DNA of 63,809 nt, filler included, from Thraustochytrium aureum (Eukaryota), in NCBI GenBank assembly GCA_012862495.1. It is 6 parts of 5 records of this genome, joined end to end, with 100 filler letters (N's around TTAATTAATTAA, not from the genome) between each part and the next. Parts side by side here need not be neighbours in the genome. Positions count along the whole stretch, not along the records: positions 13,649 to 35,864 come from BLSG01000270.1; 5 more parts are not named here. One strand, written 5' to 3'. The position numbers were made by a program, and so were the translations under genes. Positions 3,103 through 33,984 of this stretch are shown piece after piece. Under the pieces are notes generated by a model. The model was given only the letters and a program-made list of their open reading frames with translations. It had not been told where the DNA came from and searched no databases. Positions within the stretch are counted from its first letter, which is position 1, and every line of letters begins with the position of its first letter.

Positions 3103-6100
3103 CTAGCCCGTCCTGTACTGCGCGGGCGCCCCGTGCGCGTGAAACTGTTGCTGTTGTTGCTGCAAGAGCTGGCTCACGTGCTGCTGATGTGCAAGTTGCT
3201 GCTGTTNNNNNNNNNNNNNNNNNNNNNNNNNNNNNNNNNNNNNNNNNNNNNNNNNNNNNNNNNNNNNNNNNNNNNNNNNNNNNNNNNNNNNNNNNNNNNN
3301 NNNNNNNNNNNNNNNNNNNNGGTAGTGCACTTGCTGCCACTGGGGGTCATACACGGCATCCTGGCGCACTGGGGCCGGCGGCAGAAACTGCGCCTGCTCC
3401 GCCGCATCCCGGAACCCAGGTTGGGGCGGCCTGCGCGACTTTGGCTCGCCCGGCGCTCCGACCCCCTCGGACCTGCTGCGCCTGCGCAACTGGATGCTCC
3501 TCTTCGACTCGCCCTCCGGGCTGGTTTGGCTCGATGTGCCGTTGCTGGCCACTTGCACAGTCCTGGTCAGGCACATCCTCATCTTTTCCGTCTTGCAGTG
3601 CATTGTCGCCCGGCGAGGCTCGGGCCGGAGCCGGCTCCTGGCGTTGATGAGCCTTCTTGGCGCCCTTACGTCTTCCCCCCTTTTTCGTGAAACCGAGCGC
3701 AGTGACATGGGCGACGTCATCGGGATCTTGGTCCAGCAGGCGCCGCAAGTGCTCGAAACTGGCGCCGTACACCGCCCGCGCCTGGTCCTGGCTGATCGAC
3801 GCACTCGCTGCAGGCTCGGTGGCAAACAGAAGCAGCGTCGAGGCCTCCAGTTCCGGGAAAGCAGGTAAGCGGTCGGCAAGTCGCGATCGTCTTTTCGGCC
3901 GCCTTGGCCGTCTCATTCGGATTGAACTTTTGGCACTTTGCGTCTGTGAGCGAGTAGACCGACTTGAGGTAGTGCTTGAGCTGGAGCAAGAGCACAAAGT
4001 GCTGCGCTGTGCGGCACGCCCGGTGCAGGCCGAGCGCCGGAAACGCACGCGCCTGCGGCCCGCCCCGGCGATCGTCCTCTGCGTCGCTGTCCTCGTCGTC
4101 GCTGTCCGCTATGCCAAGCCGTTGTGCGATCGACTCGGTCAACGTCTCGCCGTGCAACGACGTGATGCGGTTAACCTGATAAACGAGGAAAAGCGGCTCC
4201 TCCTGCAGAGTGTAGGGCAGGGTTGCCAGGGTCTCTGCGACAAAGCGCAACGCTTGCAGAGGGATCTGGTCGCGCGATGCAGCTCGCTCAGCCACGACCG
4301 CATCGTCGGACGCGTCGCCAGTGCCGCCGCCGTACACGTCGGACGAGTCGGCCTGGAAAAGCGAGATGGCCGACTGCAGGAACCGGGAGCGGCTCACTGC
4401 ATTGCTGGCAAGACAGGACCGGTACAGGCGCGAGAAAAGCGAGAACGTCGGCTGCAACGGGCCCACACGAAAGTGGTCTGCCAGTCCCGGCGGCGGCACA
4501 GTGGCCCACACTTGCGGCGCAGTCTCCGCCTTGTACTTGTAGGCGCGCAGAATGCCCTGCACGGCGCGCGTTGTGAGAAACTCGGGGTGGCGCTCGTCCA
4601 GCTCGAGCAGAAACTGGTGCGCGGTCTGGTGCACGACCCACTTGTCGTCCGACTCGAGCGTGACCATGGGCTCGATGCACAGGAGCGGGTTGACGAGCCC
4701 CTGCCGGAGCATTGTGCCCACTAGGAGCACGGCCTTGATGCGTACCTTGGTGGAGGGGTCGAAGAGCAGCGCGATGATTGAGGGCGAGTGCTTTTGCATG
4801 AGGGCTGCAATTATACCAGAGTCCGAGTCCTGGTCGCCGCTGACGCGCGCCACACGAGACGTGCGCTCCTCGAGGGCCTTGCGCGCTTCACCGTCCTCCA
4901 TACGTGTCTCGCCCAGCTGCAGGAGGTCGCACAGCGACGACAGCGCCTGCGCGCGCACGACGCTCTCCGGCTCCTTTGTCAGGCTCCACTGAATGAGCGA
5001 GTCGGGCCCCTGTTCATCATGAGCGCCTGCGAGGTCTCCAGCAGCAGGCCTAGCGCGCGCATCGCGTTCGCTCGGCATGCTTTGTGGCCCTTGTCATTCC
5101 CGTACGCGAGGACAAGCTCGAGACAGGTGTCGAGAGTGGCCGCGGTTGGCTCGGGAATCGCGAGGCACAGCGCCCCGCACGCCAGCACGGCGCGCAGCAC
5201 GTTGCTCACCACGCGGGCGTCTTGGCCTTGCAACGTGCGCTCCCCCCGCCGCTTGCTGAGAAAGCCCACAAACTTTTTCAGGGCGCCTACGAGCAATTCG
5301 GGGCTCCCGCCCGGCCGGCGAGCAAGCGCGCCCAAGCACTCGATCGCAGCCAGCATCGTCTCCGGGGCCTCGCGAAAGATCATCTGATGCGCCTCTGCAG
5401 CGAGGGAATCCAGCACGGCGGGCTTGAACTGCTTGGCTGTACCGAGCACGCGGGTGAAGCAACGAAGCAGGAGGCCCTGCACGTCGACTTTGTCCTCGTT
5501 GCGAATCTGCAGCTGCTCGACATTCAAGTAAGGCTGCAGGGTCTCGGCGAACGGCGCCAAGAGCTCCGCGTCGGCTTCGCAGAACAGGTCGATGGTCTGA
5601 AGGAGCTTTAGCGATAGCTCCTCCACATGCGTCGACTCGACCAACTTGCCCTCCGCGGTGACCAGCTCGGCGTCCTCGTCGTCTTGCACCTCGATGAGCT
5701 GGTCAACGAGGCTCTCGACCAGGCCGGTACACATTCTGCGGCTCTGTGCAAAGGCCAGCAGCGCTTTTTTGTCCGGCTTGTCCGCTTCAGCAGCGGCCGC
5801 GTCGTCAGCGAGAACGCCGAGCACGCCTTTGACGAGCGCGATGAGCCAAGCGTGGTCCTCCGTGGCGCCTACGAGAGCCACAATGTCGCTCGCGTTTCGT
5901 CGCACCTCGTCTGTGCACGGCAACCCCTTGAACGGCGAACGACCGAGGTAGGGCGTGCCTTGCACGGACGCCGCACTGCCGTGCCGCTGCATAGTGGACA
6001 TCATCGGGGTCGCCCCGCGCTGCGCTGACCGCACGGCTTGCATCGGCGTGCAAAAATGCGGCGTCCTGCTGCCAGAGTCGGCGGCATCTTCAGCGCTCAT

Positions 6101-8985
6101 CTCGTCGGTGCGAGCAGCAGGCGAATCGGACAACGAGCCGGATTGCCGCGCACTTGCTGGAGTCTGGTGGAGCGCTTCTGCGCCCGGCCCGTCGAGCGCC
6201 AACGCGTCGCCAAAGCTGTGCTCGGACGAGGCCCTTTGCAAACCGGGCAAGTCGGCGGGTTCGGTGAACCACATGTCTCTGAAGAGCGCGATGATCACCT
6301 CTCGCACAGAGTCCTCCTCTTGCTCGTCTGTGATACGCTGCACGAGGCCTGCATGGATCGCGGTCCTATCGTAGCCAACTTTGTGCAGAATGAGGAGATC
6401 GCGGAACGTCTTGACCACGCGCTTGCGCACGGAGAGGCCCATGTCGCTCAGTCGCTGGAGGAGCATGCTCTCGTACGACTGGGCGAGCTCCGGCTTGGCA
6501 AGCACATATTTGCCCACAAGCTCGAGCGTGGCCTCTCGCACAGAGATCGACTCGTCCAGGACGCGCTGCTCGACCGCCTTCTTGACGCGCTCGTCCTTCA
6601 TGAGCTCCGGGTTGGCCTCCAACACGACCCCAAGCGCCTTGATGGCGCGCGCGCGGAACGAGGGCTGTCCGGTGCCCAAGATAACGAGCAGCCGGGCCAG
6701 CATGACGTCGCTAACCTCCTTGGTGCAGAGCCCAGACGGGCTCGTGGCTGCCAGGTGCTTTACGATCGCGTGGGCTGCGAGCCGCGATATGGACCGTTTG
6801 CTTCGCCCCGCGGCCCCGCAGCTCGTCGCGTCTTCGACAACCTCCCGCCGCTGCAGCCATTGCTGCCGAAGCACGGGCCCGCTTCGCGCGTCGAGCTTGC
6901 GCGCAGCGTCGGCGCTTGCCCAGTGCGCCACGCAGTACTCGTACGCGAACAAGGACGCTGCCGACCCCTCAGCTGCGCGGCTCGCCAAAAAGTTGAGGTA
7001 GAGTTGCCGAAAGGCGGCCAGGTCGCGGAGGGACTCGTCGCTGGCCGTCTGGGTCTGTGGGCGGCTCGACTCGCCCGCCTCGTCCTCCTCCTTCTCTGCC
7101 GATGGCGAGCGGTCTGGCACGCCCGGGGTCTGCTCGCCAGGCTCACCGAGCGCCGCTTGATGGGACGCGGAGGCGGCACCCTTGCCCGCTCGGGGCCCCT
7201 CGTCACGATAAGCAAAGTTGGACTTGCCGAGCTGCTGAAGCATCACGCAGTCGTCGCACGTAAAGGTGCCGGCACGCTCCGGCGCGCTCAAGCACGACTT
7301 GTGGAAGAAAAACTCGCAGGCGACGCACAAAATGAGGTCAAACTCGCCCCCGTCCAGCTGCGCGGATGGGGCGGGCTGGCCTGCGCTGCCGACCAGCGCG
7401 AGCTCCTCCTCCTCCTCCTCCGCCTCGGTGCCGCGGCCTTTGGCCTGGCGTCCGCCATTTGCGCCCTCGCCGCTTTGGCACATCGGGCACTGGCGGCGGT
7501 CCGCCGACTTGCCAGGGCGGCCGCTTGGGAGCCTGAGGTGGTTGACCTGCGCCCAAGCCATGTCGCTCTGGATCCGCGCCAGAAGCTGCCCCAGCAGCGT
7601 CAGCGCCTGCGTCCCGAACTTTAGCTGCTTGGCCTGCTCTTTGCCTGTTGACTTGGCGTTCTGCTTGAGGAGCTTGTTGGCGAGGAACGCGCTCAGCAAG
7701 GTGAGCACGAGTTCTGCGGCGGGCCACTCTGGGGCGTGCAGGATCAGCAGCAGGTCCTCGACAAAGTTACTGAGAAACAACCGCAGCTGTTTCGTGTCCT
7801 CCTCGTCGGCGTGCTCTTGTGGCGACGCACAGCGTTCCAGGAGCTTGTGCAAAAAGTCCTTTGCCACTGCGCGGCACCGCTGCACGTCGGGAATCTCGCC
7901 CACGTCGCGCAGCGACGGCTGGCACACACACTGGATCAGCTCGAGCACGGTCGCCGTGACGGCTTGCACGTGCTGGTTCTCCACGCGGAAGGTTCGCAGC
8001 GCTCGCGCAGAGCGCGGCAGCTTGACCAGAACGTCGATGATTTCGTCGATGATGTACGAGCGGTGCTCTGCGTGCTGGCGGAACAGAGAGCGCAGCAGCT
8101 CGATCGAGATCTGCTGCAGCTGCACCACGCTGCTTGCGTGCCGCATCGACTTTGACGGCTCCACGGCGAGCGAGGACACGCACAGCCCCGCGACTTGCAG
8201 CAAAAGTTCGTCCTCCAGCTTGTGCACCACAGCTACCGTGCGGTCCAGGCCGATCATTACGTTGCCCAGCGCCGTCGCTAGGTTGGCGAGTGCGACGGAC
8301 CCGAGCGTGGCCTGGGCTTGCGCGTCACTCTCTCCTCTGCCTCTGCCTGCGGTGTTGCTCTCCGCCGCGTCCTCGTTTTCGTCATCGTCGTCGTCGCTCA
8401 TGTCTGGCGCCTGGCCTGCTTTCCGCTTCGACTTTGCCTTGCTCGCCTTGCGCTTGCCTTGGCGCCGCTTTGCTTTGCTCTGCGAGCGCTGTCTCGCGGC
8501 TCCAAATTTTGAAGCAAAGGTGGGGTCTGCGGCAGGGAAGATCACATCGTGCAAGAGGTTGCGGCACAGGGAGATGACGCCTTCAAGCGCCTCGCCCGAC
8601 ACGACACGCTGGTCAACCCCTGCGGCAGTCATAAGCGCCAGAACGGTGTGTGCAAGGTCGAGCTGCCGCGCCCAGTCGAGGGAGGCGCCAGCGTCGCGGA
8701 TCGCAGAGTCGAGCAGTTTGACAAAGTCCAGCACGACGTCCTGGTCTGCTTTTCCGACGACCCCCCTGCGCGCTTCGCCCTCCACGTGTCCGCAGACCGC
8801 CAAGAGGTCGTCGCTCGCGTCGACGTTCCCGCCTCCTTCCCTCATCCCTGCCAACGCCGCGCTCTCGCAGCCCCTCAGCCGGTCTGCTGCTTGCTCGTCC
8901 CCTCGCTGCACGACATCCCGCAGCAAGTCCGTGAGCCGCTCAGCATCTCCATCCACAGCACAGCAGCAACCGCGTTCGCCTTCCT
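3103..8985 (-). CDS. NIPBL: Cohesin loader Nipped-B/SCC2 (HEAT repeats, PHD finger, C-terminal domain); 5' end at a gap, split by 2-3 single-base frameshifts
   Basis: Contains SCC2 motifs FVEDLLLILHAPEWPAAELVL, FRARAIKALG, DESISVREATLELVGKY, DMGLSVRKRVVK, LRQGLVNPLLCIEPMVTLESD, LATLPYTLQEEPLFLVYQVN and LLQLKHYLKSVYSLTDAKCQKFNP. Frame switches near 5008 (GGGG run) and near 3860. The Q-rich tail to 3103 needs a further shift and is less certain. Confidence 0.9.
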
Positions 8986-13548: not shown

Positions 13549-13648
13549 NNNNNNNNNNNNNNNNNNNNNNNNNNNNNNNNNNNNNNNNNNNNTTAATTAA
13601 TTAANNNNNNNNNNNNNNNNNNNNNNNNNNNNNNNNNNNNNNNNNNNN
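13549..13648. other. Artificial scaffold spacer
   Basis: 44 N + TTAATTAATTAA (13593-13604, stops in all six frames) + 44 N. Confidence 0.97.
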
Positions 13649-16600
13649 GGGGTTGGCAAAGAGTTGGTGGCGCGCGTTCGCAAGCCGCACACAAAGCGCT
13701 TGCTCAAGCTTGAGGTTAGACCTACTCCAATCTCTTCAGCGTCGAGTTGGTCTCGAGTGCCTTGCAGAACACAGCAGCCCCGGCATCGGAGATTTGATTC
13801 TTCCAGAGACTGTTGTTGGCGTTGTGTGTTGCGGATATCGAGTTGGAGGCAGAACATTGTGTTAGCGAGCGAGATGTGGAGGGCGGGTCGGCTTTGCAAG
13901 CAGCAGACTAGGACGGAGTGAGACACTGCGCTGCGGCGCCGTCCGTGAAACTTACTGGAGCTCGGTCAGTGTCGAGTTCTTCTCAAGCGCCTTGCCTAGC
14001 GCAGCAGCTCCTGCATCGGAGATTCCGTTCGAGACGAGACTGTTGTTGTTGGCATTGACAAATGAATGATTGGATGGATGGATGGATGGATGGATGACGT
14101 TTGGGTGTTTCATTCGTCAGCGAGCGCGCCAGCGAGAAAGAGAGGCGGGTGCGGCCGCTCGCACAGCAAATAGAATAGGGGTGGCGTTCGACACGGCGCG
14201 CTACCATCTCTGCAACGACTTACTCGAGCCAAGTCAGCGTCTTGTTGGTCTCGAGTGCCACGCCGAGAGCAGCAGCCCCTCCATCGGAGACTTCGTTGCC
14301 ACCGAGACTGTTGTTGTTGACGTTGATGGTGGATGACAGCAAAGCGTTGTTTCATGTCAGCGACCCAGCGAGAATGGGAGGTAGATTCGGCCGTACAAGC
14401 AGCGGACAATTGCGTATGTTACACCGCACCACGATGCACTTCCTGAAACGACTTACACCAACTTTATCAGCGTCTCGTTTGTCTCCAATGCCTTGCCGAG
14501 GGCGGCAGCCCCTGCAACGGCGATTTGGTTGTTGAAGAGACTGTTATTGTTGGCGTTGATGATCGATGGATAGACGGATGCCGGCAGTGCAATATTTTGT
14601 CAGCGAGCGAGCCAGCGTGCGAGCGAGCGGAGAGAGCGAACGCGCTGCGGCGCCATACCCAAAAATACGTACTGCAGCTCTGTCAGCGTCGAGTTGGTTT
14701 CGAGCGCCTTGCCCAGCGCAGCACCCGCTGCATCGGGGATTTCGTTGTTGTCAAGTCTGTGTGTGATGTTGGCGTTGGTGATGGATGGTAGCGCGGACGC
14801 ATGTTTGTCGCGCGTTGATTCGTTAGTGGGCAAAAGAGAAAAGCTGCTGCGCCGTCCTTGCAACGACTTACTCGAGACTCGTCAGCGTCGAGTTGGTCCT
14901 GATTGATCTGCCCAGTGCAACACCCCCTTCATCGGAGATTCGGTTGCGCTTCAGACTGTCGTAGATGGCGCGATGATTCGTTGACAGGCGGGTGACAGCA
15001 ACGTTGACTCGTTAGCAAGCGAGAACGAGGTGGAAGTTCGGCCGCTCTAGCAGCGCATGGCGGGGGAGGGAGGGAAGACAGAGCGCGTTCGTCCCGCCGC
15101 TCTGTGGCGCCATCCAGCAACGACTTACTCCAGCCAAGTCAGCGTCGAGTTGGTCGCGAGGGCCTTTCCTAGCGCAGCGGCGCCCGCATTTGAGATTTCG
15201 TTGTTGAAGACGCTATTGTTGTGTGGGGTGACGACGTTGTTTCATCAGCGAGCGAGCGGGAGGTGCGGACGTGAAAGCAGCTGATGGGGAGGAAGGAACT
15301 TACATGAGCCTAGTCAGCGTTGAGTTGGTTTCAAGTGCTTTGCCAAGCGCTGCAGCCCCTGCATCAGAGATTTTGTTGTTCCAAAGACTTTAGTTGCAAG
15401 TGAAAGGATGGATCGATGGATGACGGACGCGCGTTGTTTCGTTAGTGAGCGAGCGAGCAGCACACAAGGAGGACAGGGGCCAGGAGCGAGCGCGTTCGAC
15501 ACGTAGCCCTGCGCGCCAACCCTGAAACGACTTACTGGAGCTCAGTCAGCGTCGAGACACGTCCCGAGTGCCTTGCCCAGCGCAGCAGCCCCTGCGTCGG
15601 AGACGCTGTTGTTCTCAAGACTGTTGTTATTCGCGACGATGATGGATGGATGCAGCGCGGGTTCGTAAGCGATATTGCCACAGCTCGAGAGAGGGACAAG
15701 CGCGTGACGCGCCGCCCTCCGGCGCCATCCCTGCAAAGNNNNNNNNNNNNNNNNNNNNNNNNNNNNNNNNNNNNNNNNNNNNNNNNNNNNNNNNNNNNNN
15801 NNNNNNNNNNNNNNNNNNNNNNNNNNNNNNNNNNNNNNNNNNNNNNNNNNNNNNNNNNNNNNNNNNNNNNNNNNNNNNNNNNNNNNNNNNNNNNNNNNNN
15901 NNNNNNNNNNNNNNNNNNNNNNNNNNNNNNNNNNNNNNNNNNNNNNNNNNNNNNNNNNNNNNNNNNNNNNNNNNNNNNNNNNNNNNNNNNNNNNNNNNNN
16001 NNNNNNNNNNNNNNNNNNNNNNNNNNNNNNNNNNNNNNNNNNNNNNNNNNNNNNNNNNNNNNNNNNNNNNNNNNNNNNNNNNNNNNNNNNNNNNNNNNNN
16101 NNNNNNNNNNNNNNNNNNNNNNNNNNNNNNNNNNNNNNNNNNNNNNNNNNNNNNNNNNNNNNNNNNNNNNNNNNNNNNNNNNNNNNNNNNNNNNNNNNNN
16201 NNNNNNNNNNNNNNNNNNNNNCGCAGAGGCCCCTGGGCCGGAGATTCTGTTGTACTCGAGACTGTAGTTGTCGTTTACGGTGATGATGGATGGATGGGTG
16301 CATGTACGCATGACAACAGCGTGTTGTTTCGTTAGCCTGCGACGAAGGAAGCGAGGCTCGGTCGCTGTGCCAGCGAAGGGGGAGCGGGCGCGTTCGACAC
16401 ACGGCTCTGGGGCGCCTTATACTCATCTACTTACTGGAGCGCAGTCAGAGCCGAGTTGGACTCGAGCGCCTTGCCTAAGGCTGCAGCCCCTGCATCGGAG
16501 ACTTGATTGCCACAAATGCTGTTGTTGTTTGCGACGATTATGGATGGATGGGTACATGAACGGATTGCGGCAGCGCTGACGAGTGAGCGAACGAGCGAGA

Positions 16601-17538
16601 GAGCGGGAGGGATGTCTGGCCGTGCAAGCAGCATCAAATGAGAGAAAGGAACAATCGCGTCAACTGCTGCACGAAATCTGCAACGACTTACTGAAGCTCT
16701 GTAAGCGTCGAGTTGGTCTCGAGTGCCTTGCCCAGCGCAGCAGCCCCTGCGTCGGAGATTTGGTTGGGACCAAGGCTGTTGTTGTTGGCGTTGATGATTG
16801 CTTGATGGGGGGACGACAGCACGTTGGTTCGTAAGCGAGCGAGAAGGGGAGGCAAGGGCTCGACCGCAAAAGCAGTGTGAGGCGCAGAAAAGAACAAGCG
16901 CTTTCGACGCACTGCGCCGCGGCAACGACTTACGCCAGATAGGTCAGCGTCGAATTGTTTTCGAGCGCCGTGGCCAGTGCAGCAAGTCCTGCATCGGAGA
17001 CGCGGTTGATGGAAAGCCTGTTGTTGTTGTTGGTTGTGGTGGTCGTTTCGATGGATAACGACAGCACGGTGTGCTTTCGCTTGTTAGCGTAGTGAGCAAG
17101 GCAGCGAGATTCGGCCAAGCAAGCATCAGACGGTGTGGTGGCCGGGGCGAGTGCGTTTGACCCGCCACACTGCAGCCGCACTGCGGAGCCATTCCAAAAC
17201 AACAAACGTACCGGAGCGTCGCTAGAGCCGAGTTGGCCTCAAATGCCTTGCCCAGCGCAGCAGCCCCAGCATCGGAGATTTGGTTGTTGTCAAGACTGTT
17301 GTTGGTGGTGTTGATGATCGACGGATGGAGGAGTGCCGGAAGCGATTTGTTTGTTAGGACCGACCGAGCGTGAATCGGAATCAAGTTCGGGCGCTCAAAC
17401 AGCAGAAAGGCCAGGGGGTATGGACGAGCGCATTCGACGCGCTGCACCGCGAAGCTATTTCTGTCGCGACTTACTTGAGCCCAGATAGCGTAGAGTTGGT
17501 CTCGAGTGCCTTGCCCAGCGCAGCAGCCCCTGCGTCGG
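13649..17538 (-). repeat. Diverged tandem array of ~175-280 bp exon+intron units (at least 15 copies)
   Basis: Introns are 91-194 nt. They share a GTAAGTCG-type donor, a TCGAACGCGC-like internal motif, a CTAAC/CTGAC/CTTAC branch site, (ATCC)n tracts and a (CAA)n-CAG acceptor. Confidence 0.88.
13726..17538 (-). CDS. Multi-exon RI/NLRC3-type (28-aa) LRR protein, one LRR per 84-nt exon; partial at both ends
   Basis: Exons in 5'->3' order: >17538-17475 (partial), 17295-17212, 17017-16934, 16775-16692, 16518-16435, 16261-<16222 (partial), 15620-15536 (85 nt), 15387-15304, 15212-15129, 14955-14872, 14756-14673, 14540-14457, 14307-14224, 14039-13956, 13809-13726. All visible boundaries are AG/GT and all introns are phase 2. 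Consensus is xLxxNxISDAGAAALGKALETNSTLTxLx. Confidence 0.92.
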
Positions 17539-18441
17539 NNNNNNNNNNNNNNNNNNNNNNNNNNNNNNNNNNNNNNNNNNNNNNNNNNNNNNNNNNNNNN
17601 NNNNNNNNNNNNNNNNNNNNNNNNNNNNNNNNNNNNNNNNNNNNNNNNNNNNNNNNNNNNNNNNNNNNNNNNNNNNNNNNNNNNNNNNNNNNNNNNNNNN
17701 NNNNNNNNNNNNNNNNNNNNNNNNNNNNNNNNNNNNNNNNNNNNNNNNNNNNNNNNNNNNNNNNNNNNNNNNNNNNNNNNNNNNNNNNNNNNNNNNNNNN
17801 NNNNNNNNNNNNNNNNNNNNNNNNNNNNNNNNNNNNNNNNNNNNNNNNNNNNNNNNNNNNNNNNNNNNNNNNNNNNNNNNNNNNNNNNNNNNNNNNNNNN
17901 NNNNNNNNNNNNNNNNNNNNNNNNNNNNNNNNNNNNNNNNNNNNNNNNNNNNNNNNNNNNNNNNNNNNNNNNNNNNNNNNNNNNNNNNNNNNNNNNNNNN
18001 NNNNNNNNNNNNNNNNNNNNNNNNNNNNNNNNNNNNNNNNNNNNNNNNNNNNNNNNNNNNNNNNNNNNNNNNNNNNNNNNNNNNNNNNNNNNNNNNNNNN
18101 NNNNNNNNNNNNNNNNNNNNNNNNNNNNNNNNNNNNNNNNNNNNNNNNNNNNNNNNNNNNNNNNNNNNNNNNNNNNNNNNNNNNNNNNNNNNNNNNNNNN
18201 NNNNNNNNNNNNNNNNNNNNNNNNNNNNNNNNNNNNNNNNNNNNNNNNNNNNNNNNNNNNNNNNNNNNNNNNNNNNNNNNNNNNNNNNNNNNNNNNNNNN
18301 NNNNNNNNNNNNNNNNNNNNNNNNNNNNNNNNNNNNNNNNNNNNNNNNNNNNNNNNNNNNNNNNNNNNNNNNNNNNNNNNNNNNNNNNNNNNNNNNNNNN
18401 NNNNNNNNNNNNNNNNNNNNNNNNNNNNNNNNNNNNNNNTT

Positions 18442-19149
18442 TTGGATAGCGACGGCGTCGCGATGGAGGGCAAGTGCGCGCGGGAAGGCAAGTGCGACGA
18501 GAAGGAGCTCTGCAAAGGGTTCAGGGACGTCGCGGTGGTCGAGAACGAGAACAGACGGTCCAAGGCGATCTCGTTCTACCCCAAGGAGGTCGAGCAGGTC
18601 TGCAAAGGTGAGTGAGCGGCACACGGTGTGCGTCTGTGATGGCTTGACTCTGACTGGCTGGCTGGCTGCCGTGGGCGTGGCGGCGCAGACATTGCGGCCT
18701 ACTTCAGGGCCGAGAGTGGCGGCGCGGACCGGAAACGCGAGAAGGAGCTGGACGACGTCCTCGGCCCTGAGGCGCTGCGAGCGCTGCTGCGCAACGTCGA
18801 GGAAACCGGCGACGACAACCGCACGGTGTGGTTTTTCGAGTACAAGCTGATGAGTGCAGCGGAGATTGGTAGCCGCGGGGTCTTGGAGCCGTGCGGCTTG
18901 GTCCCGTTTGCAGAAAACGTCGACGGCGACATGCTCGCTGTTGGCGAGGCCGAGCATGACGGCGGCGTGTTCAACGTCTCGTCCGAGGGCGAGGTCGAGG
19001 GCGGCCGCGAGGCGAAAAGCCTTGCCGAGTACCTCGAGGCGTACCGTGACGACTTGCTGAGTAGCAAGCTGGAGTTTGTCGAGGACTGCGGCATGGTGGA
19101 GAAGACGCCCGCGGTCGGCTCGCCTGTCGGCGCTGGCAGCAAAAAGTAG
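18442..19149 (+). CDS. SMI1/KNR4 (SUKH)-like domain protein, 5'-partial, one intron (18608-18688)
   Basis: Splicing GTGAGT...GCAG (81 nt, CTGAC branch) joins ...EVEQVCK/DIAAYFR...VWFFEYKLMSAAEI...LVPFAENVDGDMLAV...AKSLAEYLEAYRDDL in frame. The latter segment has the SUKH pattern. Recognised by eye. Confidence 0.55.
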
Positions 19150-21366: not shown

Positions 21367-24300
21367 TCAGGCCAGCACCGTGCGCTGGTTGAAAGTCATC
21401 TGGCACACACGTTCGAATTCGGCCCACTCGAGCGAGCCAGATTCGTCTGCATCGAATTGCAGAAAGATCGCAGAGATGCGGTTGAAAGCGGAGGCGCGGA
21501 GCAGCGGGCGCAGCACGGGCGACTCTTTGATGAGCTGCAGGATGATCATGTCGGATTTTAGCGCCTCGCGCAGCTCGTAAATCGAGATCGACCCGTCCCC
21601 GTCGCGGTCCATGGCGTCGAAGAGCTTGCGAAAGTCTACGCGGCTCGAGCGCTCCTGCTCCGACTCGTTGAGCGTCCGCCCAAACACGCGCAGGAACTCT
21701 TCAAGGCTGACGTCACCGGAGCTGTCGGCGTCAATCGACTGGAAGATGATGTCGCACAGCTCGTCGTCCATCAAGAGCCCGAGCGACGGATACTCCTTCG
21801 CGAGCTCTTGCAGTAGCGACTGCTCCCGCACTGCCTTCTTCAGCTCCCGGAGCGACACAAAGCCGTCTCCGCTTGTGTCGAGCTGCGCAAACAGCATGCT
21901 GAGCGCATCGTCGCTCACCACGGCTTCGCTTTGCTGTTCTGGCTTTTCGCTCGCTGCCGACTCGGCGAGTGACATGGCGCTGACGGGGACCTTGGATAGC
22001 TTCCCCTTGCGCGCGTTGAGGTTGCGCGAGCCCGGCTTGCGCAAGCTAGGGCTGGAGAGCTTGCTCGGCACTCCAAGCGCAGCCATCAGGGCGTCCGCCC
22101 CGGGCTGGCCCTCCGTTGTTATAGAACGCTCACTAAGGAGACCGCCAGAATGGCTCGGCCCACCTGAGCCCTTGCGCAGCACGCGCAGAGAGGCTTTGCT
22201 CGTCCCGAACCGAATTTTGCGCTCCGCATCGCTCGCTCTGGCCCGCGCCGACTGGCCCACGGCTGTTTTGCTGCGCTTTACTGAGGCGCTTTGGCGCCTG
22301 GAGCGCTTGTCTGCTTGCCCGGGACCAAAGTCGACAAAGATGTTCTGCGCCTTTGCGTACCTGCCCAGCATTTGAGCGCGCAATCCGTCAAACGACTGGC
22401 CCGTGGGCGCGAGCTTGCTGTCTACGTCGGCGCGCAGCTGATTGAGGAGCAACGAATTGGCCGGAACTTGCGCGGCTGCCGTTCGCGGCCGAACCCGCGA
22501 TGGAGACGACCGTTTTGGCCGAGACCCCGTTGCCTCGCTCGTTCGCGGTCGCACCCCGCGCTCAAAAACAAGCGGCGGAAGCTGCGCGGGGCTTTGGTGT
22601 CCGTCACTAAACATCTCGCTGTTGTTGCTGACGGCTGGGACCCCGTGGCCCTGGTGAGTCGCCGCAGCGTCGTCGTGCGCCTGCGCTTGCCACGCCCCTT
22701 CGCCGACAGTGTAGTGGTGAAAGATCTGCATTTCGTACGCCCCGATTCCACGCGGCCGGCCCAGCACCTCAATTCGGCGCTTTGGTTCGGTCGCGTGTGT
22801 CGGCGTTTTGGTCTCGAGATCGATTGCGTTCGGAAGCCAACGTGACGGGAAGGGCCGAAGGGCCGGCGCGTTGGTCCCCGCGTCGACAGTTGCGACGAGG
22901 TCGCCCCGTCCGGCGCTGTCCTGGTCGTCCTCTACTACCATGGCTACCTCAGTGCTCAAGATGGCCTGCGACTGTGTGCGCCATGTCTTTGTGTTCTCCA
23001 CGGCGGTCGAGCTGAGCTGCGTCCAAAAGTCTTTGTTGTACTCCTTTCGCTTGAGCAGCTCGAGCTGGCCGCGAGCTTCTCTGGCGTGCCTTTCGTCGCT
23101 GGCTCTCTGAGCAGCCCAGCGCTTCTTCATCTGGTTCGTGATCTTTGGTTGAGCTGCCGCGCGGGCGGCCTTTTCCGTGCGGCCCTTTCCGCTTCTTCGC
23201 GCACCTGCTGCGCCTGTTTGGCCACGTTGCGCTCCGTGAGCTGGGACTGCATTTTTGAGAACGCAGACAACGCGTCGACGTCGCCACGGGCTTCGAAAAT
23301 GTTTTGCGCCTGCTCTGCCTCAATCTCAATGCTCCTGATGGACTCGAAATACTCGTCACTCATCTTTTCGGCCAGGGTCTTCCTCTTTTCTTGCGAGGCC
23401 GCCGGGAGCGGCTCGATTGCTGCGAACTGGCGCAGCGGGGCGAGCCCTAGTTCATCTTCGCCCTCGTCTTCGCTGCCCTCGACTTCGTCGCCCTCGTCTT
23501 GGCGGCCCTCGCAGCCTTTCCCACGGAGCGAGGCTTTCCCTTCTTCAGGAGTCGCTTCTGTGTCTTGAGGACACTCCATGCTGCTCCCTGCGCTGGCCAA
23601 GCCCCGCGCATTGTTCCTCGCCGTCGCGGCGCTGCGCTCTTCGCACGGGTCTGCGCCTTCCTCGCCGCCGCTTGCGGTCTCGCTTGCAAGAACCTCTGGC
23701 TCCGCATCTACAGGGCTGGCGTCCAGTGCAGCGATTCCTCTGCGTCCCACAACCCGGGGCCTTCCTCGTCAGGGTCGGTGGCACTTGCATCTTGCAATGA
23801 ATCCAAGCTCGCGTCCAAGCTTGCGCTTTGGCTGCTTGGGTCCTCCGCCGGGACCTCCTCCGCTTGCTGGTCCTGCGGCATGTCCCGCGCAATTTCGGGC
23901 GGCAGCGCGGCGCCTGCAACTTCGCCTCCGGCTTCTGCAATGTCCGCGTCAGCAGCATCACTCTCCACATCAGACGCGCCGCTTTGCCCGCCTTCCACGT
24001 CGGAGGTCGTTGCTTCCGGGCCGAAGGCTTCGAATGCTGGCAGCTCTGTCTCCGCGAAGAGTTTGCTGAGCCGAATAAGCTTGGCCTTCTCGCCGCCAAG
24101 CTTTTCGCTCTCGGAAAGAAGCCTTTTGCTCTCAGAGAGCAGGTCCTCGAGCCGGGCAAGCCCGTCCGCCTGGCTACTAGCTGGTGCCGGTCCGCCGCTA
24201 GCGCTTCCTGGCACTTGGCAAGCGAGGCTCGCACGATGCACGGTCGCCCTGTGATGCAGCGCTGTGAGCTCCTTCTGGGCGACCTTGCGCGTCGCAGAGC

Positions 24301-24520
24301 AGAAAAACCCTGCAGGCGGCTCCCATGCGGACTCGCCCGTGGACTCGTTCAGGTAGTAGTGCGCGTTCGAGCTTGGGTCAAAGAGCATGACCCAGGTGCC
24401 CCACATCACCGCGCTCGGGTGCTCGTACATTGCGGCTCCCGTCGCATCGTGAAAGTAATAGTTGCCATATTCTGCGTCCTCCACGCACGTCCAACCCACT
24501 GGCGCTTCCAAGTAGTCCAT
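21367..24520 (-). CDS. WW-domain + C-terminal EF-hand protein, split by two single-base frameshifts
   Basis: Two N-terminal WW domains (GWTCVEDAEYGNYYFHDATGAAMYEHP; WVMLFDPSSNAHYYLNESTGESAWEPP) and four EF loops (DTSGDGFVSLRE, DADSSGDVSLEE, DRDGDGSISIYE, DADESGSLEWAE). Adding one base near 23735 and one near 23175 joins three ORFs. Confidence 0.7.
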
Positions 24521-25194
24521 GGCGGCGGCAGCTCTCGCGCGGCTGCTCGTTCGCGGCGGGCTCTGTCCTCTGTGCGCCGCGCAGACTGGCAGCAAAGCCG
24601 TCGCGGCCTCCGTGCCGTCGCGGCCGCTGCCCACGCGGCGCCACCGTCTTTGCGCAGCCCAGCCAACTGCTGCACGACCAAGGCCAGGCGGCTGTCTCGT
24701 CACCAAATTCCACCCACCACAGAGTCCTCGTCAGCGGACATGCTCCACATCCCGGCTCGCAACGGCGTGGTGACCATGGCCAAAGCCCACCCGCCAGACA
24801 GGCACATGACCTCAAAAACGCACTTGAGATTTATCTGGACCTCCAGAGCAAAAGCAAAACGCCTCTCCGCGCCGACCGTCCATGCCGCAGCCCGGAGCAT
24901 CCGCGCCGCGCCCGCCGCAGTCGCGCAGGCCGCGCCGAGGCCCCGGCTATTGCAACTTTCCACCGACGGTCCAGAATTCGCTGCAAAGTACACACNNNNN
25001 NNNNNNNNNNNNNNNNNNNNNNNNNNNNNNNNNNNNNNNNNNNNNNNNNNNNNNNNNNNNNNNNNNNNNNNNNNNNNNNNNNNNNNNNNNNNNNNNNNNN
25101 NNNNNNNNNNNNNNNNNAAGCTTGGAAGCGGCGAAAAGTGCTCGACGAACGCGACGAGACGCGAGCGACCGCAGGCGGCCGCGCGGTGGAGGAG

Positions 25195-26961: not shown

Positions 26962-28564
26962 ATGGGCGAAGCCAAGATGCCGGGTGGACGAGGCGCTGGG
27001 CGCAAGGAGCAGGCGAGCAAGGCGTTCCTGGCGATGTCGAGGTTTCGCAGACGCAGGTACGAAGGCTGCGTGGAGCTGTGCACGGAGATTCTGGCGGATA
27101 ACCCCTACGACAAGGCGATCTGGCTGCTCAAGTGCCAAGCACTTACAGCGATGACGTACATTGACGACTCGGATTTGGAGGAGCAAGGCATCGCCGACTT
27201 TTTGCTGGACGACAATGCGACGGCCTCAATGCCCCGGCCCGGGACCTCGCTCCACGCGGCGCAGGGCCAAGGCGGGCCTGCCAACCGCGCTCTGGACCCC
27301 GCCGTTCGCCCCCATGTCCAACGCCGGCCGGCCCACGTCCGGGTTCGTGCGACCCAGCACCCAGTCGTCCTCGGTGCGGCCAGGGACGAACGAAGCAGGT
27401 AGCCGTGCTGCGCTCGAAACCGCGATGCGCAAGACGGGGCGGCCCGGCACTAGTCGCCCAGTCACGGCGCTCGGTCGGCACGTGCGCCTTGGCACGGCGT
27501 CGATGCGAAGCGAGATGGACGGGCCCTTCATCGACGTCAACAGACTCGACCTCCGAAAGTACGCGCATAGGCCAGCTCTGGCGCGGGCACTGGAGGACTT
27601 TTTGCTCTACCACGACCACAACCCGCGCAAAGCGCTCGAGCTAGCGGCGGAAGCAACCAAGGCCTGCGGGTACGAGTGCTGGTGGTGGAAGCAGCGGCTC
27701 GGCAAGTGCTATTACCTGCTGGGCTTGTACCGGGACGCAGAGCAGCAGCTCAAGAGCTCGATGCGCCTCCACCAGAGCGTAGACACCGTTCTCGACCTCG
27801 GCAAGGTGTACTTGCGCCTCGACCAGCCGCGCAACGCGCTCGATACGTACGCAAGCGCGCTCGAGTGGTACCCGGGGTCCACGGCGCTGTTGATCGCTAT
27901 TGCGCGCACGCACGACCTGCTCCTGGACGCAGACGAGGCGCTCAAGGGCTACAAGCGCGTGCTCAAGGAAGACCCCAGCAACGTGGAAGCGATCGCAAGC
28001 CTCGGTGCGCACTACTTTTACTCGGACCAACCCGAAGTCGCCCTGCGCTTTTACCGCCGGCTCCTCGAGTCAACGCAGACCGGCGCCGACAACAAGGCCA
28101 GCGCAGAACTGTGGAACAACGTCGGGCTCTGCTGCTTTTTCGCAGGACAGTACGACATGACCCTTCGCTGCTTTGAAAACGCCCTTGCGGCCGCTGACGA
28201 TTCAAACCTAGCAGACGTGTGGTACAACATCGGGCACGTCGCGATCGGTATCGGCGACCTTGGCCTCGCGTACCAGTGCTGCAAGGTCGCCGTGTCGATC
28301 GACCCGACGCACGCCGAGGCCTGGAACAACCTCGGCGTTCTGGAAGTGCGCAAGGGCAACCTCAACGAAGCCGCCGCTGGATTCGGGAGCGCACGCGAGG
28401 GCTCGGCCTATGCATTCGAGCCTAGGTACAACGCGGCGTTGCTGGCTTTCAAGCGCGGCGACTTCGACTCGAGCTTTGCGCTGGCCTCCGAGTCGAAGCG
28501 GCTGTACGCAGCAAACCCAAACACGGACGAACTCTTGGACGCCCTGCGCAAGCGGCTGTGCTAG
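26962..28564 (+). CDS. TTC8: BBSome subunit BBS8 (TPR protein); one extra C near 27308-27312
   Basis: AMSRFRRRRYEGCVELCTEILADNPYDKAIWLLKCQALT, PRPGTSL, RPMSNAGRPTSGFVRP, VRLGTASM, WWWKQRLGKCYY and YFYSDQPEVALRFYRRLL. Confidence 0.93.
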
Positions 28565-28878: not shown

Positions 28879-31800
28879 CTAGGGCGCTGGAAGCACGCGG
28901 TTGTCGCGCGCCGCTCCGGCCGGTTCAGAGTCGACGAACGACATCGCGTGTACCGAACCAGACTCAAGCCCAGCAAGGCCGGTCATCTCAATCGCGTGCT
29001 CCTCAACAGGGCCGTCCTCGTTCGGCTGTCCTCGCACCGCGTCGAGGAGCGGGTCGTGCGAGTCGGTGGCGTCGAGCGGGATCGTCGTGTGCAGGGACGA
29101 GAGCGACGTGCGGACTGGCGCAGACATCGGCGCCAGCTCGCGGGGCGCCCCAGAATCAGAGAGCTTGAGCGACATCGCCTCGCGCATAGGCCCAATCGAG
29201 CTGCGCAGGAGCGAGTTGACGAGGCTGCGCACGCGCTCATCTTCGGGGTGGTCATAGTCAAACGCAGAGCGGTCAGCCCCGCGGCGAATGTTTTTGATGT
29301 TGGCGGCCGCGAAGAGCTCTGAGATGGCGTTCTGCGGGATCGTGAGCGGCTGCGCAATGCGTCGAAATATCTTGTTGACTTTGCGAAGCCGAGACTTTTT
29401 GTTCCCGGTCGACTCGCCAAAGCCACGGTCGATCTCGATAACAATGTCGACGACGCTGGGGAAGAACTCCTTTCGAACGTAGATCGCAAAGACGTCGTAG
29501 ACCATGCACATCGCCGTGACCAGAAAGACGTTGCTCCACAGGTAGCCCGTGACCCCGTCGCCGGCCCAGAGCACCGTGGGGCCGAACTGGACGTAGATGG
29601 TGGGGTCGGTCGAGTAGTAGATGGGCTCGAAGACCAGCATGCAGAAATAGCCAAAAATGACGACGCCCACATTGAGCCAGGTCCAGGTATACGTCTCCAG
29701 GCAAGAGCGACTCACACAAACCCAAATGCATGCCATGTACACGGTCGTGCCCAGCGCAGAGATGTTGACACCGCGCGGCGCGGCCCAAATGATGCAAATC
29801 GCGCAGATCAGGAACGCGTGCAGGAAGGACTTGAAAATATACTCTAGCGCGCTGCCCTTGTCGAGGTGCAGGTTGCGCCGGCCCGAAATGTACATGGCTG
29901 GGTACTCGAGCGCGGTTTTGCGGGAGATGTCCTTGTTGAGGCACGCGATCACCGCAATGGGGATCTGCGTCGGGTAGCTGTACACCGTGGTGAGAAACAC
30001 CCAGTACAGCGCAGACCCGCTAAACTTGTTGTAAAAGTTGTACACGAACGCAGTCAGCACAAAGAGGATGTTGGCGTAGAACACGAAAAGCACCATCGTG
30101 GCAGCGCGGCGGTAGTTCCACCGTCCGTGCACCAACATGAGCTCTTGCAAGAACCGAAACTGCGCGATCGCAAAATCGGCGCTGTTCACGGCCTGACGGC
30201 CTTCATGGCCGCTGATCCCCACGCCGACCCTGGCCTCCTGGATCATGGCCACGTCGTTGGCGCCGTCCCCTATTGCCAACGTGATCGGGCTCGAGCCGTC
30301 CTGCATGCGCACGCCCTTCTTGACCATGCGCACGATGAGCGCCTTCTGCTTTGGGCTTACGCGGCACGCCACTACCACAGAACAGAGCCGCGCGATGGAC
30401 AGCAGGAGCTCCTCCGACTCGACAGTCCCGAGCTCGGTCTTGAGCAAGCCGCGCAGGGCCGGCCCGGTTAGCACAAGCGCCATGTTTTGCGCCTCGAAGC
30501 CGTCAAGGTTCTTTTCCGTGCCCTTGAGCTCGCGCTCGTTCACGCGACCCTCTGAGGCGTTTTCGACACCAGGGGGCAGGGGCTGCGCGGCAGAGCGCCA
30601 CTCTCCCGCAGACGCGCCGCTTTCGAACAAGGCCCCCGCCTCTTCGCTAGCGGTGCGGCCCACGGTGCCACGACTTGTGCCCTGGCCGTCGCGTCCAAAG
30701 CTCATGTGCATGGTGTTCCACAGCTTGGACAGCGAAGGTATCGATCGGCGCTTCTTGGAGGGCGACGTCGCGCTGGATGTCGCGCTCATGGGCTCGCCAA
30801 ATGCAGAAGCGGCCTGACTGCGCGCTGTTGGCGGCGACTTGGCCCCCGCCATGCACTCGTCCACAGTGTGGGAGCGCGAGCGCTGCGACTCTGAGAGCAA
30901 AAGGCCGCCGCCGGCCTCGCCCGTCAAGCCCAGGTCCGAGTTGGCGTGTGCGGACGGAGCCTCGGCGCTCGCACCCTGAGGACGCGCAGAAGCCTCAGAT
31001 TCACTTAAAGAGCCCAGCACAGGTATGCGCGGGCTTCGCCCACGGGGCTGGCGCCGGTGCNNNNNNNNNNNNNNNNNNNNNNNNNNNNNNNNNNNNNNNN
31101 NNNNNNNNNNNNNNNNNNNNNNNNNNNNNNNNNNNNNNNNNNNNNNNNNNNNNNNNNNNNNNNNNNNNNNNNNNNNNNNNNNNNNNNNNNNNNNNNNNNN
31201 NNNNNNNNNNNNNNNNNNNNNNNNNNNNNNNNNNNNNNNNNNNNNNNNNNNNNNNNNNNNNNNNNNNNNNNNNNNNNNNNNNNNNNNNNNNNNNNCATCG
31301 CCGTCGCCGTTTTCTGTTGGAGAGCGAAACTGGCGCAGCGAGACAACGGAAAACGCCGCGCGGCCAGCCTTCTCGACGTGTTAATCGTCGAGCGACCTGC
31401 GCGCTCCACCGTATCGAGAGTGGCACGGCCCCGCTTTTCTCCATCGTGTTGACCGTGGTGGACCTCACGCCGTGGACGGCTTTGCCCAGAGTGGACATGG
31501 TCGAGGTCGCGCCGTGCTGGAGCAGGTTCTTCCCGGAACGCTCGCGGACCGCCTCCCGGCCGCGTTTGCGCTTCTCTGAATCCTCGGCGAGGTTTTGGGG
31601 CACGAGCAAGGCGTGGAGGTCGCGCAGGGTTGCTAGATTCTCCTCGCTCGACTCGCTGGTGATCCGAACGACCTCCATCTCGGGCGTGAACAAGCGCGCC
31701 GAGAACGAGATGTTGATCGCCGTTTCCACTTTGTCGCCCGTGAGGACCCAGGTCTTGACCCCGGCCTCGCGGAGCGCGACGAGGGTCTCGGGCACCCCGG

Positions 31801-33984
31801 CTTGCAGGCGGTCTTCGATGGCGCTCGCGCCGACGATGACCAAGTCCCGCTCGATTCGCTCGGCCGCGGCAGCGAGCAGCTCGGCGCGCCGCTCTCCGAG
31901 CGCGTTGGAGGCCTCGTCAAAGCCCACGCGCCACTCGGCGTACTCGTCTTCGGTGAGCTCGCGTTGCGCCATGACCAGCGTGCGCAAGCCGTCGTTGGCG
32001 AACGCGTCAAGGTGGCGCGCCAGCGTGGCCATCGCCTCTTGGTCTTGCGCAGAGGCCTGCTGGTTTGTGAGCTCGAACATGATTGTGTCAGCACCCTTTA
32101 CAAGGAGAACGAGCCTGCCGTCCGGCCGGCGGCACACGACCGACATGCGCTTGCGCGTCGAGTTGAAGTGATTGATGGCGAGGATTTCGAAATTGAGGAG
32201 CTCGCCGTTGCAGTCATCCAGCGAAAAGCACGCCTCCTCTTCCTCCTCTTCCTCCTCCCCCTCCTCGTCGGCTTGGTCGGCCTCCTTGTCGCCGTTGGCC
32301 GCGCGCTTGGCGCGCTCCTCGTCTTGCCGAACTTGGCGGCGCGTGGCCTCGAAGAGCCGGGCCTCCTCTTCCGTCGACAAGTCGAAGTTGACCGTATAGG
32401 TGCCGTTGTCGGTGGCGACGAGGCGCAGGCCGATCTCGGCGGCCGCGCTCACGAGCGCTTCCTCGTCAGGGCCCTCGGCGTTGTACTGGATCTTGCCGGT
32501 GGTGGTGTCCACCAGCACGGTGTGGCAGACTGAGAGGACGATGCAAAAGTCCATGAGAGCCGCGCGGTCCGCCGCCTTCGCCGGCGACTCGCTTCGCAAG
32601 AGTTTGATGGCGTCGGCAAAAATCTCTTTGATGGTGCAGCTCGAGTCCGATCCGGTGCCCTCCAGCCCGTTGCCGATCCCGAAAACGCGCCCGTTTACAG
32701 TGCAGCCCACGAGCTTCATCTCGTTGCGCGTGAGGGTCCCCGTCTTGTCGCTAAACAGGTATGAGACCTGGCCGAGCTCCTGCACGAGCTCCATCGTGTT
32801 GCACTTGGCGGGCGTGTCGGTTTCGGCGTGGTACATGTCGAGGTCCCAGTGGACGAACATGGCCTGCCAAAAGTTGCTGAATGTCATGCAGAACAGGAGG
32901 GAGATGGGCAGGAGGCTGCTGTAGAGAACGATAAACGTGCACACGTTGGCGATGTACGTCGGGAACTGAAAGGTGTTCTCCGAGGCCTGTCGGAGGTAGT
33001 ACAGCGAGGTGTTGTTCGGGTACCCGTATATCTCGATCAGCGAGCTCACCGTGCACAGGACGATGTCGACCGCGAGAATGAGCACGATGATCTTGTTGAT
33101 CAGCTTTTGGATGCGGCTCATCTTGCTCGGGGGATCGCTGCTGCTCTGCACCACCTTGGTCTCGGGGCCCGCGTAGAGGACGATGCCGAGCACCCAGGGC
33201 GTGTTGCGCAGCACTGAGCCGCGCAAGAGGATATTCGAGGTGTCGAGCGGGACGTCGGTGTACCCGTCTTTGGTGGGCTCGCGCATGTACCGCGTGTCAT
33301 CGAAGACGCGCGCGCTTCCCGAAAAGGTGAGGAAGGCGTTCGGGAGGTCGTATGTGATCACCGCCCGCAGCGAGGCCGCCTGGTCGGGCAGGAGCAACGG
33401 TCCACCAGGTCCTTGGCCACGTGCTTGATCTTAAGGTTGGTTTCGCCGTCGATGTTGGCAGTCTCCACGTAGCACTTGTTGCCCACGGCGCACGAGGTCA
33501 CAAACAGCAGGTCGGCCGGGAACTGGGCGCGGTCGTGGACCTTGAGCAGGTCGCCGGGCCGGACGTCGGCCCAGGGAATCTCCTCCATGTGGCCGTCCCC
33601 TGGCCGCAGCCGGTAGGCTATCCGCGCGTTCACCTCGCGGTCCTCGCGGTGGCGCTTGATGTCGTAGTACCCCTCGAATGCCATCGTGAAGCCGACGACC
33701 AGCACCAGGCCGAGCAGCGTCCCGGCGGCCGAGTAGGGGCTCTCGAATAGGTTGGTGTTCGTCCCGAGGATGGCCAGCACCACGATTACCAAAAAGTAGA
33801 TGTTGCTCAGGTTGCGAAACTGCTCGAAGCCGCACTTGAAGACGAAGTTTAGCAAGGTGTACCGCGCGGTTTTCACCATGTTGTTTGGCCGCGTGCCGCG
33901 GTCCACCACGGGTAGCTCCATTTCTAGCTGCTCCAGCTTCGCCGCGCGCGACCTGCACCACGGGATGCACCTGCACCAGCCCAT
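28879..33984 (-). CDS. P4-type ATPase (phospholipid flippase); internal gap and frameshifts
   Basis: NMVKTARYT, EQFRNLSNIYF, ETANIDGETNLK, LLRGSVLRNT, PISL, FSDKTGTLTRN (phosphorylation site), PDEEALV, IEDRLQ, WVLTGDKVETAINI, CRVSPKQKA, IGDGANDVAMIQEA and LVHGRWNYRR. Confidence 0.93.

What the first reader, a model, noticed from the sequence alone, without database searches (positions are those of the whole stretch)
13649..17538. One-LRR-per-exon cassette array: candidate combinatorial immune-type receptor system in a protist
Seen: at least 15 tandem units on the minus strand. Twelve complete exons are exactly 84 nt, one is 85 nt and two are cut by gaps. Each encodes one 28-aa LRR (e.g. LGPNQISDAGAAALGKALETNSTLTEL, LWNNKISDAGAAALGKALETNSTLTRL, LKRNRISDEGGVALGRSIRTNSTLTSL). 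Every intron is phase 2 at the same position, so any exon can be skipped, duplicated, deleted or swapped without breaking frame. Other genes in the window have 0-1 detectable introns, so 14+ introns in under 4 kb is exceptional. Known: vertebrate NOD2/NLRC3-type LRRs use 84-nt exons, and brown-algal (Ectocarpus) ROCO genes have shuffled one-LRR exons. Inference: this is an independently built, modular ligand- or pathogen-recognition repertoire diversified by exon shuffling and/or alternative splicing.
Basis: partly seen in the sequence, partly recalled or inferred. Interest (0 to 1): 0.9.

Follow-up and report, generated by a model that had tools for sequence, protein, structure and literature searches.

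The report
Thraustochytrid one-repeat-per-exon LRR gene
A marine protist gene encodes a row of leucine-rich repeats, each on its own 84-base exon, and a transcript fragment joins three of them in plain order; it is likely the binding end of one member of an expanded gene family, with a layout known from other eukaryotes, and no mix-and-match immune mechanism is shown.

Summary
In detail: 12 exons of 84 nt, one of 85 nt and two cut by gaps, all with phase-2 introns, each coding one 28-aa RI/NLRC3-type LRR. The host is a thraustochytrid. The introns are homologous (62% vs 36% shuffled), so the array grew by exon+intron duplication. One probable-RNA contig splices three neighbouring exons in order; no skip joint was seen, but only 2 of 13 junctions are covered. 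A DNA run keeps the order at 6 of 13 adjacencies and reads the 85-nt exon as 84 nt. There are no inverted exon copies. The framework is under purifying selection; strand residues vary at about the neutral rate (p=0.066). Six other junction sequences in RNA point to an expressed family. The same layout occurs in 18 of 39 metagenome loci, some beside Roc, kinase or NACHT domains, and in NOD/NLRC genes; this scan noted similar arrays in fungi. Real gene, known design; shuffling, isoforms and immune role unshown.

The parts
17475..17538 (-). LRR exon, 5' part lost in the gap
17212..17295 (-). 84-nt LRR exon
16934..17017 (-). 84-nt LRR exon
16692..16775 (-). 84-nt LRR exon, closest to the array majority (11 differences)
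16435..16518 (-). 84-nt LRR exon
16222..16261 (-). LRR exon, 3' part lost in the gap
15739..16221 (.). 483-N gap; by unit length it would hide about two more exons (inferred)
   Evidence: the sequence after the gap aligns with intron starts
15536..15620 (-). 85-nt LRR exon; 84 nt in DNA run X1
15304..15387 (-). 84-nt LRR exon
15129..15212 (-). 84-nt LRR exon
14872..14955 (-). 84-nt LRR exon, spliced to the next exon in run X4
14673..14756 (-). 84-nt LRR exon, spliced on both sides in run X4
14457..14540 (-). 84-nt LRR exon, spliced to the previous exon in run X4
14224..14307 (-). 84-nt LRR exon
13956..14039 (-). 84-nt LRR exon
13726..13809 (-). last visible 84-nt LRR exon; donor GTAGGT, scaffold ends 77 nt later
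13810..17474 (-). span holding 13 whole and 1 partial homologous phase-2 introns (91-194 nt; GTAAGT or GTACGT donor, CTRAC-like branch in most, AAC-rich acceptor)
17539..18439 (.). 901-N gap that must hold the gene's 5' end; shared with the upstream region of the divergent neighbour
18463..19149 (+). divergent neighbour gene (one intron, 18608-18687; weak SMI1/KNR4 match); bounds the LRR gene upstream

Best explanation
The array encodes a run of at least 15 ribonuclease-inhibitor-type leucine-rich repeats, one per 84-nt exon, with three neighbouring exons seen spliced in genomic order; it is likely the N-terminal binding domain of a predicted cytosolic protein and likely grew by tandem duplication of one exon-plus-intron cassette. 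Shown: exon and intron anatomy, intron homology, serial splicing of two introns, purifying selection on the helix framework, a thraustochytrid host. Inferred: unequal crossing-over as the duplication route; constitutive splicing of the remaining exons; a family of paralogous genes that share the cassette; a horseshoe fold whose inner strands bind a partner. Each intron cuts the codon in the middle of the binding strand, so any gain, loss or swap of a cassette over evolutionary time makes a new strand without breaking the frame. Diversity would thus be inherited and slow, not generated per cell. The downstream domain (Roc, kinase or none) is unknown.
For: Introns 62% identical vs 35-38% in 5 shuffles. 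Contig 25 of run X4 (208 nt, 0 differences) crosses 14872/14756 and 14673/14540 at GT..AG; these are the only 2 joints listed at 95% likeness in 4 runs. DNA run X1, about 1% different (6 letters in 627), bridges 6 of 13 adjacencies with 31 or more letters on both sides, all in window order (table 8). Exons differ by 14-32 of 84 nt, with no young duplicate pair and no link between distance and divergence (rho -0.02). Framework positions: 45 of 528 minority bases vs 57 of 180 at fourfold sites, p=1e-12. The divergent gene starts at 18463 and contigs run 171-188 nt into the gap, leaving about 700 nt for the 5' end. Same exon design in 18 of 39 metagenome loci, GC 36-62%, next to Roc (L018, L033), MLKL_N plus kinase (L026), NACHT (L028).
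Against: RNA cover is thin: 1 contig of depth 4.2 in 1 of 3 runs that are only guessed to be RNA, 2 of 13 junctions; contigs drop rare isoforms. Strand residues vary at least as fast as neutral sites (51 of 120 vs 57 of 180, p=0.066; by column p=0.08), which hints at diversifying selection. Exon halves and flanking introns give uncorrelated distances (6 Mantel tests, p 0.06-0.67), as recombination would, though a star-like burst would too. X1 contig 1 leaves its last 21 letters unaligned beyond 13736, inside the last exon: a different exon end in that haplotype or an assembly chimera. X1 may be the sample the window came from.
Confidence: 0.65

Rival explanations
1. A fast-evolving recognition family: many paralogues exchange cassettes by recombination in the conserved exon core, which homogenises the helix and reshuffles the variable strands, as in Ectocarpus ROCO and Tetrahymena LRR genes, probably for sensing pathogens or prey.
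For: Short core pieces have depth 498-650 in the probable-RNA runs and 94.5 in DNA, against 2-6 for unique pieces (the tool warns that depth is no copy number). Six distinct spliced junction sequences in those runs match none of the 13 visible junctions (read by hand as TDLFLRNN, TTLYLWSN, RSLDVSIN, RSLDLQSN, TTLNLSNN, TTLYLG). Eight DNA contigs leave the window 9 nt into one intron with another intron start (place 15120). Two different endings after a last LRR are seen. Unaligned 21 letters at 13736 in X1.
Against: No inverted or orphan exon copy in 56 kb of called sequence. No near-identical tract between cassettes: the best self-matches are 63-77%. Order kept in X1 at 6 of 6 bridged adjacencies. 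Positive selection not significant. Some of the extra junctions may come from exons of this same gene hidden in gaps. No evidence on ligand or induction.
Confidence: 0.22
2. Combinatorial alternative splicing: the cell skips or chooses exons to make many isoforms from this one gene (Dscam-like or as reported for Ectocarpus ROCO).
For: All exons are symmetric; 196 of 196 possible junctions are stop-free. Skipping of one LRR exon is known for NLRP3 (PMC6642158) and splice variants for ROCO genes (PMC11378527).
Against: The three exons seen in RNA are joined serially, which excludes pick-one use among them in that molecule; 0 skip joints at 95% likeness. At 90% the extra joints lack intron ends or carry foreign letters. 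Donors are strong and uniform (11 GTAAGT, 2 GTACGT of 13).
Confidence: 0.08
3. A decaying, weakly expressed paralogue of a younger family: the array is under relaxed constraint and has no current recognition role.
For: Each exon is 11-21 nt from the array majority while near-majority cores are abundant elsewhere. One exon is out of frame in the window and lacks the otherwise invariant Asn; a few framework changes (exon 13809).
Against: 12 of 12 whole exons are open with intact AG/GT; framework under purifying selection; spliced contig present; the frameshift is absent in X1.
Confidence: 0.05

Closest known systems
Vertebrate NOD/NLRC LRR domains (Hoss et al. 2019, PMC6642158; section 6 read whole, other passages)
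   Same: One 28-aa RI-type LRR per exon, frame-preserving, exon border at a fixed place within the beta-strand.
   Different: Here the repeats lie near the gene's 5' end with little room for a NACHT domain before them; introns are short and still homologous; skipping, shown for NLRP3, is not seen here.
Brown-algal LRR-ROCO genes (Zambounis et al. 2012, PMC3341825, passages; Teng et al. 2024, PMC11378527, passages and section 15)
   Same: Stramenopile; N-terminal LRR array; one repeat per exon; phase 2; variation on the concave face.
   Different: Their exons are 72 nt (24 aa, GxxPxxL type). Their shuffling evidence (inverted and noncoding intronic exons, differing recent paralogues, positive selection, splice variants) was not found here. 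A Roc domain is not seen here.
Tetrahymena 90-bp-exon LRR genes (Xiong et al. 2019, PMC6564038; passages and section 27)
   Same: Unicellular eukaryote; tandem exon-intron cassettes with phase-2 introns; growth by unequal crossing-over; mostly purifying selection; function unknown.
   Different: 90-nt exons, thousands of genes, link to a retrotransposon. Family size and any mobile element are unmeasured here.
Unnamed eukaryote arrays in metagenomes (L004, L005, L011, L013, L015, L017-L019, L023-L029, L031, L033, L034)
   Same: 84-nt, phase-2, same-border RI-type LRR exons in tandem, 2-9 per contig.
   Different: Other GC content and intron style; exons 33-56% identical to the window's on average against 70% within the array; partner domains differ.

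Membership tests
RI-like (NLRC3-type, Pfam LRR_6) leucine-rich repeat | 28-residue period with LxxLxLxxNxI strand and long helix | tested here: met
   13 junction strands fit the motif. Single exons score weakly (6 of 12 hit LRR_6 at E<=0.1, best 0.0016), as the exon splits the motif. 35 of 36 profile hits scanned carry LRR_6; PDB hits include a ribonuclease-inhibitor-like protein.
NLR (NOD/NLRC type) | One 28-aa LRR per frame-preserving exon, border inside the strand | tested here: met
   PMC6642158 section 6
NLR (NOD/NLRC type) | NACHT domain upstream of the LRRs | tested here: inconclusive
   No NACHT among 122 ORFs of 170 aa or more. About 700 nt of gap remain before the divergent neighbour, too little for a NACHT module (size recalled), but the gap length is an estimate. 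Not filed as an NLR.
Brown-algal shuffling LRR-ROCO genes | 72-nt type I LRR exon | tested here: not met
   Exons are 84 nt and RI-type vs 72 nt.
Brown-algal shuffling LRR-ROCO genes | Roc-COR domain after the LRRs | not testable with these tools
Brown-algal shuffling LRR-ROCO genes | Inverted or noncoding LRR exons inside introns | tested here: not met
   nhmmer and self-blastn find none in the called sequence; the one out-of-frame exon is in frame in X1. Gaps not covered.
Brown-algal shuffling LRR-ROCO genes | Positive selection on concave residues | tested here: inconclusive
   pN 0.54 vs pS 0.51 at five strand positions, 0.15 vs 0.45 elsewhere; excess over fourfold sites p=0.066. No codon-model test was run.
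Brown-algal shuffling LRR-ROCO genes | Splice variants with different LRR combinations | tested here: inconclusive
   2 adjacent joints, 0 skips, 2 of 13 junctions covered, contigs only.
Tetrahymena 90-bp-exon LRR genes | Exactly 90-nt exons | tested here: not met
   84 nt
Dscam-type mutually exclusive exon cluster | Only one exon of the cluster per transcript | tested here: not met
   Three neighbouring exons in one contig; other exons untested.

The most novel reading that the evidence does not exclude
An intron-poor thraustochytrid keeps a large, expressed family of LRR genes whose cassettes recombine between loci in a homogenised exon core, so that each exchange builds a new binding strand across the split codon: a heritable recognition repertoire in a unicellular stramenopile, made from an exon design that many eukaryote lineages have amplified separately.
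Probability: 0.22. Interest if true: 0.65.

Novelty: new member of a known kind. Interest (0 to 1): 0.33.

Why it matters
It extends the one-LRR-per-exon layout to thraustochytrids; I found no paper on it there. The metagenome hits show that the 84-nt, phase-2 RI-type cassette is widespread and has been amplified separately in several genomes, beside Roc, kinase and NACHT domains, so the layout alone is weak evidence for an immune shuffling system. If exchange between loci or induced isoforms were shown, thraustochytrids would be a small, culturable model for how single-celled eukaryotes diversify recognition proteins.

Tried and rejected
No whole genome is held, so paralogues could not be counted. 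No run on record as RNA was listed; X2-X4 are guessed RNA, supported only by the spliced contig. Parts of the array without contig cover in the runs are not counted as evidence. tblastn of single exons against the window gave only noise outside the array. Protein searches with the exon profile found no protein of this gene: best match 20 of 27 residues among 248 stored proteins; top hits are NACHT-LRR and other RI-LRR proteins, named ones from corals and a fungus. Six Mantel tests between cassette parts were not significant. The 103-exon tree has 27 columns and few supported forks; the window's 12 exons form one side of a branch at 86/46, not starred. The metagenome pattern fixed the donor position, so it shows that this border recurs, not that other borders are rare; 21 of 39 loci had fewer than two such exons. 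Grouping of loci into 11 sets was my choice from contig-name prefix (10 data sets) and intron style. The Atlas look-up of the neighbour gene was not available. No structure was predicted, as the spliced protein is not a contiguous sequence. PMC8917795 (one passage) only counts LRR Pfam domains. Papers listed and 65 other than the five cited were seen as listings only. Supplements were not read; exon tables in the supplements of PMC6642158 could confirm the exact border and phase in NOD/NLRC genes. Rejected: assembly artefact (exons differ by 14-32 nt, splicing seen), transposon or simple repeat (coding constraint), pseudo-exon reading of the 85-nt exon.

Full report
Observation. The minus strand of 13649-17538 holds 12 exons of exactly 84 nt, one of 85 nt and two cut by gaps, each between AG and GT and each coding 27 whole codons plus a split codon. 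The 13 whole introns are 91-194 nt and phase 2; 11 of 13 give an in-frame stop at the donor if retained, and all 196 combinations of exon end and exon start are stop-free. The exon-end pattern occurs 6 times in the window and never in 100 shuffles. The window is a chain of scaffolds joined by 100-nt linkers; the array ends 77 nt before one of them and begins after a 901-N gap, so both ends of the gene are missing.

Host. BBS8/TTC8 on the same scaffold is 72% identical to Hondaea fermentalgiana and 71% to an Aurantiochytrium entry, against 57% for the best named oomycete; Nipped-B on the next scaffold also has Hondaea as best named hit. The host is a thraustochytrid. Long unbroken ORFs fit an intron-poor genome.

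Repeat type. Across junctions the repeats read LxxLxLxxNxI followed by a long helix, 28 residues in all. This is the RI/NLRC3 type: 35 of 36 profile hits scanned carry Pfam LRR_6, with NACHT, kinase, COR/TIR, U-box, RCC1, Sel1 or ankyrin partners. The class therefore does not name the function. A divergent gene starts at 18463 and contigs extend 171-188 nt from it into the gap, which leaves about 700 nt for the LRR gene's start. If the gap estimate holds, the repeats are N-terminal and the gene is not NACHT-LRR; the domain after them is unknown.

How it was built. The introns align with each other (mean 62%, shuffled 35-38%), so the duplicated unit is exon plus intron. Exons differ by 14-32 nt, with no young pair, and divergence does not follow distance (rho -0.02). 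Exon halves and flanking intron ends give no correlated distances: either one burst followed by separate drift, or old recombination. No inverted or orphan exon lies in the called sequence. Framework codons are constrained (45 of 528 vs 57 of 180, p=1e-12); the five xxLxLxx positions (set recalled from LRR geometry, chosen before this count) vary as fast as or slightly faster than fourfold sites (51 of 120, p=0.066). The intron cuts the codon of the central strand residue, so each strand is made from two exons.

Is it spliced, and how? In run X4 (guessed RNA) a 208-nt contig with 0 differences joins 14937-14872, 14756-14673 and 14540-14483 across two GT..AG introns. These are the only joints at 95% likeness in four runs; they cover 2 of 13 junctions at depth 4.2, so rare isoforms are not excluded. 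DNA run X1 bridges 6 of 13 adjacencies, all in window order, with about 1% differences; it may be the source sample. X1 lacks one base at 15560, which puts the 85-nt exon in frame, and one X1 contig has 21 unaligned letters beyond 13736 in the last exon, unexplained.

A family. Short pieces matching the exon core reach depth 498-650 in X2-X4 and 94.5 in X1, against 2-6 for unique pieces; six distinct spliced junction sequences match none of the visible junctions; eight DNA contigs continue into another intron start at 15120; two different sequences follow a last repeat. Depth is no copy number and hidden exons of this gene may explain part, but a multi-gene family with similar helices and variable strands is likely.

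Elsewhere. One scan of metagenome contigs for the exon end plus donor gave 39 loci; 18 hold two or more 84-nt, phase-2 RI-LRR exons, from 10 data sets with GC 36-62%. With a fixed motif, 60 exons were 84 nt in this frame and none in the other two frames. Neighbouring ORFs carry Roc (L018, L033), MLKL_N plus kinase (L026) and NACHT (L028). 90 of 103 exons have their nearest neighbour in their own group, 12 of 12 for the window: a shared design, amplified separately. The pattern fixed the border, so other borders were not sampled.

Literature. Most NOD and NLRC genes have one 28-aa LRR per exon with the border in the strand, and NLRP3 skips one LRR exon (PMC6642158). Brown-algal ROCO genes use 72-nt phase-2 exons with inverted intronic copies, positive selection and splice variants (PMC3341825; PMC11378527). 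Tetrahymena has 90-nt phase-2 arrays grown by unequal crossing-over, function unknown (PMC6564038). I found no paper on such arrays in thraustochytrids. Earlier notes of this scan describe 84-nt arrays in early-diverging fungi (unchecked); none matched this sequence.

Verdict. A real, spliced gene fragment with a known design, new for this lineage. It works most likely as a serially spliced binding domain that evolves by cassette duplication (0.65). Exchange between loci in a recognition family remains open (0.22); combinatorial splicing is unlikely (0.08). Interest 0.33.

Noticed in passing
window 18463-19149 (+): Divergent neighbour with one intron and a weak SMI1/KNR4 (SUKH) match, E 6e-4, below the curated cut-off. 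The intron is retained in contigs of X2 and X4.
   Followed up: partly
window 13549-13648, 35865-35964, 42897-42996, 57582-57681, 62436-62535: Five identical 100-nt linkers (44 N, 12-nt TTAA repeat, 44 N): the window joins separate scaffolds, so genes across them are not neighbours.
   Followed up: yes
window 13715-13736: A DNA contig of run X1 stops matching inside the last exon for its final 21 letters: other haplotype or chimeric scaffold end.
   Followed up: no
L005, L013, L015, L027, L029: Five contigs of one data set with 32 such exons; exons of different contigs mix in the tree, a candidate for exchange between loci in another eukaryote.
   Followed up: partly
L026:3615-5468 (-): MLKL_N-like plus kinase ORF directly upstream of five 84-nt LRR exons: a possible cell-death-type sensor in an unnamed eukaryote.
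   Followed up: no
L018 and L033: 84-nt RI-type LRR exons upstream of a Roc domain: ROCO genes with a repeat class other than the brown-algal 72-nt type; L018 also has an ion-transport ORF upstream.
   Followed up: partly
window 17212-17295 and 14673-14756: Two distant cassettes share an exon start and the rarer GTACGT intron start, each other's best match in both: a trace of non-adjacent duplication.
   Followed up: partly
window 3720-8983, 21370-24730, 27155-28561, 28882-34143, 41759-42895, 46847-47416, 51442-54543: Ordinary genes by Pfam: Nipped-B, EF-hand and WW proteins, BBS8, P4-ATPase, a kinase, DIM1, Rad17.
   Followed up: partly
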